Shown in pieces: positions 11,851 through 12,002 of a DNA stretch of 64,000 bases (position 1 is the first letter of the stretch; each line of letters begins with the position of its first letter). Both the position numbers and the translations under genes were made by a program. Under the pieces are notes generated by a model that was given only the letters and a program-made list of their open reading frames with translations, ran no database searches and was not told the origin of the DNA. Location: the IMG/VR virus record IMGVR_UViG_3300013947_000022, positions 96,001 through 160,000 of that record. The stretch is one strand, 5' to 3'. Origin of the DNA: a virus (Duplodnaviria > Caudoviricetes).

Positions 11851-12002
11851 GCAGGTATGGTGGAATTGGTAGACACAGCAGACTCCTTGGTATAGCATAA
11901 GTAATGCGCTCTTTTGAGAGATAAAAGTTCAAATCTTTTTATCAGGTCCAAAAATCTGCCGCTGAAATATGCGTGGGGGTTCGAGTCCCCCTACCTGTAC
12001 CA
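11851..12002 (+). tRNA. tRNA-Leu(CAA) interrupted by a 65-nt CCA-ending tRNA-like insert (11886-11950)
   Basis: Leu-type D loop GAATTGGTAGA, long variable arm, GCAGA/TCTGC stem, ACCA; excision gives CT-CAA-AA. Confidence 0.87.

What the first reader, a model, noticed from the sequence alone, without database searches (positions are those of the whole stretch)
11886..11950. Inner CCA-ending tRNA with a stunted anticodon arm in tRNA-Leu(CAA)
CTTGGTA/TATCAGG acceptor, D arm GCAT-AAGTA-ATGC, 3-bp CTC-TTTT-GAG arm, T arm AAAAG-TTCAAAT-CTTTT, then T-CCA. The CCA ends exactly where the host anticodon resumes (C|AA). If released it would be a non-decoding CCA-bearing tRNA mimic, a possible decoy for nucleases, T-boxes or RelA (inference).
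Basis: partly seen in the sequence, partly recalled or inferred. Interest (0 to 1): 0.8.

Follow-up and report, generated by a model that had tools for sequence, protein, structure and literature searches.

The report
tRNA-shaped intron in phage tRNA-Leu
The leucine tRNA gene of a ~215-kb phage that reads a stop codon as an amino acid is split in its anticodon by a 65-base insert shaped like a small tRNA; the edges of this and similar inserts fit removal by ordinary tRNA-trimming enzymes and resealing by the phage's own RNA ligase, a route suspected but never shown.

Summary
Window 11851-12002 is a tRNA-Leu(CAA) gene, and a 65-nt insert (11886-11950) splits it between anticodon nt 34 and 35. 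The insert scores as a tRNA (Rfam 38.2 bits, cut-off 29) and runs from the first acceptor base to U-CCA. It is one of three nested mini-tRNAs in the window. I parsed 11 such inserts (eight acceptor sequences) in this phage and its relatives. Acceptor stems pair in 73 of 77 cells and T stems in 55 of 55. Defining the insert as "+1 to NCCA, or to the discriminator if there is no CCA" leaves a 7-nt loop with U33 and A37 in 10 of 11; the eleventh has an ACA tail. The rule corrects two ARAGORN calls (Pro to Lys, Glu to Gln) in agreement with uninterrupted neighbours. The phage carries a T4 Rnl1-type RNA ligase next to a polynucleotide kinase. My best reading, by inference only, is excision by RNase P plus an RNase Z-type cut, then sealing by the phage ligase. 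The decoy idea is not supported for T-boxes or RelA, because the CCA and the discriminator are not conserved. A free-standing copy of a sister element keeps a function of the released RNA open. Such introns were noted in Lak megaphages (2019), and this scan has found them on other DNA. No RNA data exist.

The parts
11851..11885 (+). 5' exon of tRNA-Leu(CAA): acceptor 5' strand, D arm, 5' strand of the anticodon stem, loop nt C32 U33 C34
   Evidence: ARAGORN accepts the joined exons as tRNA-Leu(caa), 87 nt. The D arm and anticodon arm are identical in uninterrupted phage tRNA-Leu genes L001-L006.
11886..11950 (+). 65-nt tRNA-shaped insert (intron) between tRNA nt 34 and 35
   Evidence: Rfam RF00005 38.2 bits against a gathering score of 29. 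The MFE of the insert alone is a cloverleaf. Covariation is seen in relatives.
11886..11892 (+). inner acceptor stem, 5' strand (CTTGGTA)
   Evidence: It pairs 7/7 with 11940-11946. In L035 the G5 to A and G to A changes turn two G.U pairs into A-U pairs.
11895..11907 (+). inner D arm GCAT-AAGTA-ATGC
   Evidence: It is invariant in the inserts of the window, L035, L008 and L033. The same D arm occurs in ordinary phage tRNA genes (L030, L031).
11909..11920 (+). stunted 'anticodon' arm CUCU-UUUG-AGAG
   Evidence: It is replaced by a 7-bp/5-nt hairpin in L008 and L033 and is absent in the Ile and Lys inserts.
11923..11939 (+). inner T arm AAAAG-TTCAAAT-CTTTT
   Evidence: T stems pair 5/5 in all 11 inserts. 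The variants 11923 and 11924 A>G (run X5) and GGGAG (L035) give G.U pairs.
11940..11950 (+). inner acceptor 3' strand TATCAGG, discriminator T (11947), CCA (11948-11950)
   Evidence: The discriminator is A in L035 and C in run X5, and the CCA is absent in L008.
11951..12002 (+). 3' exon of tRNA-Leu(CAA): loop nt A35 A36 A37 A38, 3' strand of the anticodon stem, long variable arm, T arm, acceptor 3' strand, A73, CCA
9615..9736 (+). sister case: tRNA-Lys(UUU) with a 47-nt CCA-less mini-tRNA insert at 9648-9694 (between nt 34 and 35)
   Evidence: The edges CTT|GGATAAT...ATTATCC-C|TTAA give the loop CUUUUAA. The syntenic genes in L008 and L009 are uninterrupted tRNA-Lys(TTT). ARAGORN's Pro(tgg) reading uses a shifted register.
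14780..14974 (+). sister case: tRNA-Gln(UUG) with a 122-nt mini-tRNA insert at 14814-14935 ending G-CCA (between nt 35 and 36)
   Evidence: The edges CTTT|CTCAGAA...TTTTGGG-G-CCA|GAC give the loop CUUUGAC. The D arm is identical to the uninterrupted tRNA-Gln(TTG) at L007 12130-12204, and the discriminator is G73.

Best explanation
The 65 nt are an intervening sequence of the phage's only tRNA-Leu(CAA) gene, built as a miniature tRNA. It has a 12-bp acceptor/T-arm stack and a D arm, and it has no usable anticodon arm. Shown here: the shape, the exact edges, the intact exons, and membership of a family of such inserts that differ in presence and position among near-identical phages. Inferred: the shape is the splicing signal. 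RNase P would cut at the insert's +1 base and leave the 5' exon ending in C34 with a 3'-OH. An RNase Z-type (or RNase E-type) endonuclease would cut after the insert's CCA, or after the discriminator in CCA-less sister inserts, and leave A35 with a 5'-phosphate. The two exon halves stay paired through the outer acceptor and anticodon stems. The phage's T4 Rnl1-type ligase, which needs exactly a 3'-OH and a 5'-phosphate in a tRNA anticodon loop, would then seal them into a working tRNA-Leu(CAA). The 65-nt CCA-ended mini-tRNA is released as a by-product, and it may have a use of its own. At the DNA level the inserts behave as mobile or exchangeable cassettes.
For: (1) Shape: Rfam tRNA 38.2 bits and a cloverleaf MFE.
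(2) Edges: the joined exons equal the anticodon arm of uninterrupted tRNA-Leu(CAA) genes.
(3) Family: across 11 inserts with eight unrelated acceptor sequences, in the window, L007, L008, L009, L033 and L035, acceptor stems pair in 73/77 cells and T stems in 55/55. Other registers of the same inserts average 2.7/7, and 0.4% reach 6/7 or more. In the four inserts that share the D arm, 94.6% of cells pair against 32-65% when partners are slid, and 4 pairs change on both sides.
(4) Edge rule: defining the insert as +1 to NCCA, or +1 to the discriminator if there is no CCA, gives a 7-nt loop with U33 and A37 in 10 of 11 cases, at five different loop positions (32/33 to 36/37).
(5) The rule changes ARAGORN's Pro to Lys(UUU), matching the syntenic uninterrupted tRNA-Lys(TTT) genes. 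It changes Glu to Gln(UUG), matching the D arm and G73 of an uninterrupted Gln gene. It changes SeC to Glu(UUC), giving the loop CUUUCAC.
(6) Substitutions among near-identical copies keep pairing through G.U pairs on the + strand (A-U to G.U and back), which argues for RNA-level selection.
(7) Ligase: the genome encodes an RNA_lig_T4_1 protein (45.6 bits; phrog_562, the T4 gp63 family) directly downstream of a polynucleotide-kinase-like protein. The ligase is present in the three intron-bearing relatives and was not found in G004, a 100%-complete relative with only uninterrupted tRNA hits.
(8) A cut exactly after CCA has precedent: Thermotoga RNase Z, and RNase E on E. coli proline tRNAs (PMC7479834 introduction, PMC5291269 abstract).
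(9) No other splicing machinery was found: no group I or ribozyme hit, no RtcB and no splicing endonuclease gene in the phage.
Against: No RNA evidence exists. No RNA run holds this DNA, so excision, ligation and even expression are unshown.
The nearest-neighbour model prefers another fold for the whole precursor (-41.9 against -38.2 kcal/mol for the nested double cloverleaf), with inner acceptor pair probabilities near 1%. The insert's own folding energy is unremarkable (z = -0.31).
Bacillus-type RNase Z is inhibited by CCA (from memory: Pellegrini et al. 2003). The host is unknown, the promoters are extended -10 sigma-70 type, and the nearest cultured ligase homologue is in a Bacillus jumbo phage at 31% identity. 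If the host is a Firmicute, the enzyme for the cut after CCA is unidentified.
One family member (the L009 Gly insert) ends in A-CA, so it fits neither form of the rule.
The ligase co-occurrence rests on four genomes against one, and the Pnkp/Rnl1 pair is equally explained by repair of anticodon-nuclease damage.
Confidence: 0.6

Rival explanations
1. The released mini-tRNA is the point. It would be a functional tRNA mimic, for example a decoy or competitor for proteins that bind the acceptor/T-arm half or the CCA end. Nesting it in a tRNA would then be only a way to express and process it. This overlaps with the first reader's idea and does not exclude splicing.
For: The 122-nt sister element nested in tRNA-Gln of the window, L008, L009 and L041 occurs free-standing in L007 (12001-12117), 12 nt upstream of an uninterrupted tRNA-Gln. 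Its acceptor there carries a double compensatory change, CTTAGAA/TTCTAAG. Seven of the 11 inserts keep NCCA. The region also holds other tRNA mimics, the Y-RNA-like permuted modules.
Against: In the Leu insert family the CCA is lost in L008 and the discriminator is U, A or C. The middle arm is not conserved in length or sequence, and it is absent in the Ile and Lys inserts. Without an anticodon loop the RNA cannot engage a T-box specifier, a codon in the ribosomal A site (RelA) or an anticodon nuclease (established knowledge). Position 3:70 is U-A, so there is no G3.U70 alanine identity for charging.
Confidence: 0.2
2. The gene is dead. A tRNA-derived selfish DNA insertion has disrupted tRNA-Leu(CAA), nothing is spliced, and the phage relies on host tRNA-Leu.
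For: There is no RNA evidence for splicing. Sister phages L007 and L009 carry a different, uninterrupted CAA-anticodon tRNA at the same place, so this gene can be replaced.
Against: The exons are intact after removal: a perfect cloverleaf, A73 and an encoded CCA. The same design recurs in 11 inserts, each with a joined 7-nt loop. Substitutions in both the inner and the outer stems are compensatory, for example the outer Gln stem ACGGG/CCCGT against ACGGA/TCCGT. Four or more tRNAs per genome carry such inserts, which is unlikely if each one were a loss.
Confidence: 0.12
3. The insert is removed by other chemistry: self-splicing, a small self-cleaving ribozyme, or an archaeal-type bulge-helix-bulge endonuclease with RtcB.
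For: Other tRNA genes of this phage group carry long inserts that are not tRNA-shaped (window 15751-16042), and a group I intron scores in relative L010. So ribozyme introns do circulate in these genomes.
Against: At 65 nt the insert is far below group I size. Its 5' exon ends in C, not U, and the insert ends in A, not G. No Rfam intron or ribozyme hit appears at E <= 5. No RtcB or tRNA-intron endonuclease gene is present in the phage. The splice sites sit at five different loop positions, and only tRNA-like features are shared among the inserts.
Confidence: 0.05

Closest known systems
'Enigmatic' tRNA introns of Lak megaphages (Devoto et al. 2019, PMC6784885, Fig. 4) and the intronic sequences 'that could encode another tRNA' in alternatively coded jumbo phages (PMC13037316, 2026)
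   Same: A phage tRNA gene is interrupted in the anticodon loop by an insert that itself scores as a tRNA. The phage recodes TAG. Inserts are present or absent among close relatives and are nearly identical where shared.
   Different: Those papers report the observation only, with no edge rule, mechanism or ligase link. This case lies in a ~215-kb phage with bacterial sigma-70-type promoters rather than a 540-kb Lak phage. It comes with three nested cases in one window and a free-standing copy of one element in a relative.
Group I introns in bacterial and phage tRNA anticodon loops (e.g. tRNA-Leu(UAA))
   Same: The location in the anticodon loop of a bacterial-type tRNA, patchy distribution, and homing endonuclease genes nearby (an HNH ORF at 14522-14800).
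   Different: There is no ribozyme core. The insert is 65 nt instead of more than 200, with no U at the 5' splice site, no terminal G and no Rfam hit.
Archaeal and eukaryal bulge-helix-bulge tRNA introns (EndA/Sen endonuclease with RtcB or Trl1 ligase)
   Same: Short protein-spliced introns in tRNA anticodon loops, including non-canonical positions, with ligation of the exon halves.
   Different: The phage has no endonuclease or RtcB gene, and bacteria lack the endonuclease. The conserved element is a tRNA top half, not a BHB. The predicted ends are 3'-OH and 5'-P, not cyclic phosphate and 5'-OH.
mascRNA/MALAT1-type tRNA-like elements and mitochondrial 'tRNA punctuation' (from memory)
   Same: A tRNA-shaped module with a reduced anticodon arm serves as a signal for RNase P and RNase Z cuts inside a longer transcript.
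   Different: In those systems the flanks are not rejoined. Here the flanks must be ligated to make a tRNA.
T4 Pnkp/Rnl1 tRNA anticodon-loop repair
   Same: The same ligase family (phrog_562, PF09511) sits next to a polynucleotide kinase, and the substrate is a broken anticodon loop held together by the rest of the tRNA.
   Different: In T4 the break is made by a host anticodon nuclease as a defence. Here the break would come from programmed removal of an insert, and the ends would need no healing.

Membership tests
tRNA-shaped introns of large alternatively coded phages (Lak-type 'enigmatic' introns) | The insert lies inside the anticodon loop of an otherwise complete phage tRNA gene. | tested here: met
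   Removing 11886-11950 gives tRNA-Leu(CAA). The junction matches uninterrupted homologues.
tRNA-shaped introns of large alternatively coded phages (Lak-type 'enigmatic' introns) | The insert itself is predicted as a tRNA or tRNA-like RNA. | tested here: met
   RF00005 38.2 bits against a gathering score of 29. The acceptor and T stems covary across 11 inserts. ARAGORN alone does not call it.
tRNA-shaped introns of large alternatively coded phages (Lak-type 'enigmatic' introns) | The host phage is large and reassigns a stop codon. | tested here: met
   The record is 215,374 bp. An in-frame TAG at 13108-13110 lies in an ORF whose phrog_6660 match spans residues 1-163. tRNA(CTA) genes are present in relatives.
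tRNA-shaped introns of large alternatively coded phages (Lak-type 'enigmatic' introns) | The insert is removed from the RNA, so that it is a true intron. | not testable with these tools
   No RNA run holds the stretch.
Group I intron | A conserved catalytic core (P3-P8) detectable by the covariance model. | tested here: not met
   No Intron_gpI hit in 7900-16400 at E <= 5. The model does score in relative L010, so it works on this group of phages.
Group I intron | A U before the 5' splice site and a G as the last intron base. | tested here: not met
   The 5' exon ends in C (11885) and the insert ends in A (11950).
Archaeal-type BHB tRNA intron | A splicing endonuclease and an RtcB-type ligase are available. 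| tested here: not met
   PF01974 and PF01139 are absent from the 99%-complete phage record. The host was not examined.
Archaeal-type BHB tRNA intron | Splice sites lie in two 3-nt bulges separated by a 4-bp helix. | tested here: not met
   In both the nested cloverleaf and the MFE fold, the two junctions lie in the multiloop at the base of the inner acceptor stem, not in bulges.
Substrate of bacterial RNase P and RNase Z (pre-tRNA-like) | A 12-bp coaxial acceptor/T-arm stack with a 7-nt T loop. | tested here: met
   7 + 5 bp and the loop TTCAAAT here, and the same 7 + 5 bp geometry with a 7-nt T loop in all 11 inserts.
Substrate of bacterial RNase P and RNase Z (pre-tRNA-like) | Actual cleavage at +1 and after the discriminator or the CCA. 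| not testable with these tools
   Only the positions of the edges agree with it.
T4 Rnl1-type RNA ligase (for the proposed sealing step) | The adenylyltransferase domain of the Rnl1 family. | tested here: met
   PF09511 at 43.6-45.6 bits against a cut-off of 28.3, phrog_562 at E 1.8e-27, and a polynucleotide-kinase-like gene immediately upstream. Activity and tRNA specificity were not tested.

The most novel reading that the evidence does not exclude
Bacteria-infecting phages would use a third kind of tRNA splicing that needs neither a ribozyme nor a dedicated splicing endonuclease. The intron is a miniature tRNA, so the cell's own RNase P and RNase Z cut it out and leave 3'-OH and 5'-P ends. 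A phage Rnl1-type ligase joins those ends directly. The released CCA-ended mini-tRNAs, which can also be encoded free-standing, may have a second role as tRNA mimics, for example against host factors that act on the acceptor end.
Probability: 0.45. Interest if true: 0.85.

Novelty: new member of a known kind. Interest (0 to 1): 0.66.

Why it matters
tRNA introns in bacteria were thought to be self-splicing only. Phage tRNA introns that look like tRNAs have been on record since 2019 as 'enigmatic', with no mechanism. This locus makes the question testable. It has three nested cases in 5.4 kb with different positions and different 3' tails. It has natural intron-free and free-standing counterparts in sister phages. 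It has a simple edge rule that predicts the mature anticodon, and a candidate ligase in the same genome. The rule also has a practical use: standard tRNA finders miss or mis-name these genes (Lys called Pro, Gln called Glu, Leu called Phe), which distorts phage tRNA and codon-use inventories. If the route is real, it gives phage RNA ligases a role beyond repair. It also offers a compact design for RNA processing and ligation that can be switched by a protein.

Tried and rejected
RNA evidence: the look-up of sequencing runs listed no RNA holder.
DNA contigs: laying the contigs of four runs showed no intron-less joint for this gene. It showed only structure-preserving variants in one run, plus short-sided joints in a metagenome that I do not trust.
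Thermodynamics: the insert's z-score is -0.31, and the whole precursor prefers another fold. I therefore did not use energy as support.
Theta (HDV-like) ribozymes: I considered them for the repeated UCGACNC...GNGUCGAG motif beside the tRNAs. The paper gave nothing I could match, and Rfam gave no ribozyme hit.
Ro60/TROVE, RtcB and splicing endonuclease: all absent from the phage.
Beta-CASP nuclease: the phage's CPSF73/TTHA0252-like enzyme was a candidate for the 3' cut, but it is also present in the relative without interrupted tRNAs, so there is no specific link.
Cultured phages: blastn of the region found no match.
IMG/VR: an exact 23-mer of the T arm found nothing.
Host search: a specific 28-mer found nothing in 185,579 genomes. 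A looser T-arm pattern gave mostly chance hits and ordinary tRNAs, with no host.
Stop-to-stop ORF totals under different codes did not discriminate in this AT-rich genome.
A second RNase P cut at the 3' junction in the manner of an external guide sequence: rejected on paper, because it would cut 4 nt too far downstream.

Full report
**1. What is there.** Window 11851-12002 reads as follows.
- 5' exon (11851-11885): GCAGGTATGGTGGAATTGGTAGACACAGCAGACTC.
- Insert (11886-11950, 65 nt): acceptor 5' strand CTTGGTA; TA; D arm GCAT-AAGTA-ATGC; G; short arm CTCT-TTTG-AGAG; AT; T arm AAAAG-TTCAAAT-CTTTT; acceptor 3' strand TATCAGG; discriminator T; CCA.
- 3' exon (11951-12002): begins AAAATCTGC, continues through a long variable arm, T arm and acceptor 3' strand, then A73 and CCA.

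ARAGORN without intron search sees nothing here. With intron search it reports 'tRNA-Phe(aaa)' with a 65-nt intron, one base out of register. Removing exactly 11886-11950 gives an 87-nt class II tRNA-Leu(CAA) that ARAGORN accepts. Six other viral contigs carry uninterrupted tRNA-Leu(CAA) genes whose D arm and anticodon arm (...GGTAGACACAGCAGACTCAAAATCTGCCG...) are identical to the joined exons.

The Rfam tRNA model hits the insert itself at 38.2 bits (gathering score 29). Its minimum-energy fold is the cloverleaf, with a 4-bp/4-nt middle arm.

Two honest negatives apply. The insert's folding energy is no better than that of shuffled sequence (z = -0.31). In the full precursor the nearest-neighbour model prefers a different inner fold, at -41.9 against -38.2 kcal/mol. 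That alternative (TTGG/CCAA pairing) is not conserved in relatives, whereas the cloverleaf is (see section 3).

**2. Context.** The window is part of a 215,374-bp virus record, 34% G+C, with all genes on one strand. Consensus sigma-70 promoters with extended -10 boxes precede the RNA genes, so the host is bacterial. An ORF at 13027-13539 has an in-frame TAG at codon 28 and matches phrog_6660 from residue 1. Relatives carry tRNA(CTA). TAG is therefore read as sense.

The 8-16 kb stretch of the window is an island of RNA genes. It holds ordinary tRNAs, three interrupted tRNAs, Y-RNA-like modules and small ORFs, including an HNH endonuclease.

**3. The insert belongs to a family, and its edges follow a rule.** A neighbouring gene brought in four related phage contigs (L007-L010). 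A 17-mer of the inner D arm brought in more relatives (L033, L035, L040, L041). I parsed 11 inserts with eight unrelated acceptor sequences:
- Leu(CAA) in the window (identical in L041), in L035 and in L008 (identical in L040)
- Asn(GUU) in L033
- two different Ile(UAU) genes, in L007/L009/L041 and in L008
- Gly(UCC) in L009
- Lys(UUU) in the window, L007 and L041
- Gln(UUG) in the window, L008, L009 and L041
- Glu(UUC) in L007 and L009

Every insert starts with a 7-nt strand that pairs with the 7 nt following a 5-bp/7-nt-loop T arm. Acceptor stems pair in 73/77 cells and T stems in 55/55. Other registers of the same inserts average 2.7/7, and 0.4% reach 6/7 or more. On the MAFFT alignment of the four inserts that share the D arm, 94.6% of cells pair against 32-65% when partners are slid, and four pairs change on both sides.

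Among near-identical copies of the Leu insert, all stem changes preserve pairing (G.U to A-U in the acceptor, A-U to G.U in the T stem). The only other change is the discriminator, which is U, A or C.

The rule is this. Define the insert as running from acceptor base +1 to NCCA, or to the discriminator when no CCA follows. The joined exons then form a 7-nt loop with U33 and A37 in 10 of 11 cases, although the split lies at five different positions (32/33, 34/35, 35/36, 36/37). The L009 Gly insert is the exception: a 7-nt loop there requires a tail of A-CA.

The rule makes predictions that independent evidence confirms.
- The gene at window 9615-9736 is called Pro(tgg) by ARAGORN. Under the rule it becomes CTT|...|TTAA, which is Lys(UUU). 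The syntenic genes in L008 and L009 are uninterrupted tRNA-Lys(TTT).
- The gene at window 14780-14974 is called Glu(ttc). It becomes CTTT|...GCCA|GAC, which is Gln(UUG). It shares its D arm and G73 with the uninterrupted tRNA-Gln(TTG) of L007.
- The 'SeC(tca)' gene of L007 becomes Glu(UUC) with the loop CUUUCAC.

**4. Mobility.** Presence differs among phages whose neighbouring protein is 94-97% identical.
- tRNA-Gly is uninterrupted in the window and interrupted in L009. The exons are identical except for the whole anticodon stem, which looks like co-conversion.
- tRNA-Lys is interrupted in the window and L007 but not in L008 or L009.
- The Leu locus holds the 65-nt insert in the window, L035 and L041, a 71-nt CCA-less relative in L008, and a different uninterrupted gene in L007 and L009.
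- Inserts with the same D arm sit in Leu(CAA) at 34/35 and in Asn(GUU) at 35/36 of an unrelated contig.
- The 122-nt Gln element is free-standing in L007, 12 nt upstream of an uninterrupted tRNA-Gln. Its acceptor there carries a double compensatory change.

**5. Mechanism (inferred).** The conserved features are those that RNase P and RNase Z read: a 12-bp acceptor/T stack, the T loop, and a D arm for the elbow. The edges are where those enzymes cut: at +1, and after the discriminator or after CCA. RNase Z normally cuts after the discriminator. Cuts exactly after CCA are documented for Thermotoga RNase Z, and RNase E makes them on E. coli proline tRNAs (PMC7479834, PMC5291269).

Such cuts leave a 3'-OH on C34 and a 5'-phosphate on A35. 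These are the ends an ATP-dependent Rnl1-type ligase needs, and the position is where T4 Rnl1 works, in a tRNA anticodon loop.

The phage encodes such a ligase (PF09511, 45.6 bits; phrog_562) directly after a polynucleotide-kinase-like gene (L017). The ligase is in the three intron-bearing relatives and was not found in G004, the complete 100-kb relative, where only uninterrupted tRNAs were detected. That is a small sample.

No RtcB, splicing endonuclease, group I core or small ribozyme was found.

The weak points are these. No RNA data exist. The enzyme for the cut after CCA is unknown if the host has a Bacillus-type RNase Z, which CCA inhibits (from memory). One insert has an A-CA tail. The thermodynamic predictions do not favour the nested cloverleaf.

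A discrete CCA-ended 65-nt RNA is indeed the predicted by-product. But the CCA is missing in the orthologous L008 insert and in the Lys insert. The discriminator varies among near-identical copies. The middle arm is not conserved. Position 3:70 is U-A. This argues against a conserved aminoacylation identity or a specific T-box partner. RelA and anticodon nucleases need an anticodon, which this RNA lacks. A role for the released RNA cannot be excluded, and the free-standing Gln element gives it some weight.

**7. What is known.** Devoto et al. 2019 reported introns in Lak megaphage tRNAs, one of which 'itself may encode a tRNA', and called them enigmatic. A 2026 survey states that intronic sequences in tRNAs of alternatively coded jumbo phages 'could encode another tRNA'. 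Neither paper gives an edge rule or a mechanism. I found no paper that shows splicing.

Earlier notes of this scan describe the same design on other DNA, and notes on this window list the three nested cases. I treated them as leads and re-derived the points above from the sequences.

**Verdict.** This is a real feature and a new member of a barely described kind. The mechanism is well constrained by the anatomy but has not been shown by experiment.

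Noticed in passing
L007:12001-12117: A free-standing copy of the 122-nt mini-tRNA that is nested in tRNA-Gln of the window (14814-14935). Its acceptor is CTTAGAA/TTCTAAG (a double compensatory change), its discriminator is A, and it has no CCA. It lies 12 nt upstream of an uninterrupted tRNA-Gln(TTG). So these elements can exist outside a tRNA.
   Followed up: partly
window 9229-9355, 11345-11480, 12044-12180; handle alone at 9765-9830, 14993-15060, 15450-15510, 15633-15720: A repeated handle, UCGACNC-[UA]NACAGCAA ... GNGUCGAG, has covarying arms. Three copies enclose a circularly permuted tRNA-like module (T arm, loop-closed acceptor, D arm). There is a weak YrlA (Y RNA-like) hit at 12090-12161 (28 bits against a gathering score of 69). 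No Ro60/TROVE gene is present in the phage.
   Followed up: partly
window 15751-16042: The exons match the uninterrupted amber-suppressor tRNA(CUA) of L007 14656-14730, but they are split after CTCT by about 220 nt that is not tRNA-shaped. ARAGORN calls the L041 counterpart tRNA(cta) with a 223-nt intron. No Rfam group I hit appears at E <= 5 here.
   Followed up: partly
window 13027-13539: An ORF with a CYTH-like start (EIERKWLL) has an in-frame TAG at 13108-13110. It matches phrog_6660 over residues 1-163 when TAG is read through, which is evidence of TAG reassignment.
   Followed up: partly
window 14522-14800: A small HNH-type ORF (weak Pfam HNH hit, CxxC...CxxCH) has a 3' end that overlaps the first ~20 nt of the interrupted tRNA-Gln gene. 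It was not found in L007-L009, L033, L035, L040 or L041 by tblastn. It is a possible free-standing homing endonuclease.
   Followed up: partly
window 8674-8763: A 29-codon ORF (MVYIYKIINDINDKIYVGKTEFSIEKRFK) looks like the N-terminal stub of a GIY-YIG endonuclease. This is by eye only.
   Followed up: no
L055:1402-2847 (genome 25201-26646, outside the window): A beta-CASP metallo-beta-lactamase RNA nuclease related to TTHA0252, CPSF73 and Integrator-11 (PDB E 4e-31). It is also present in the relative without interrupted tRNAs.
   Followed up: partly
L017:251-2598 (genome 77155-79502, outside the window): A polynucleotide-kinase-like gene (AAA_33, phrog_505) and a T4 Rnl1-type RNA ligase gene sit end to end, followed by a dUTPase gene.
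   Followed up: yes
L007:7587-7699, L008:11064-11176, L009:10879-10991, L009:5017-5089, L010:7561-7824: The relatives' RNA islands hold RAGATH-33 and RAGATH-18 RNAs and a group I intron, all above Rfam gathering scores. None was reported in the window itself.
   Followed up: no
window 14149-14222: ARAGORN calls an odd 74-nt 'tRNA-Arg(ccg)' behind a perfect consensus promoter (14095-14123). It has an unusual D region, and Rfam does not call it.
   Followed up: no
window 10755-10795, 11280-11320, 11578-11620: A repeated motif, GAATGGTTGGTGA...CCAACTACCA, occurs three times in the long non-coding stretch upstream of tRNA-Leu. Its nature is unknown.
   Followed up: no
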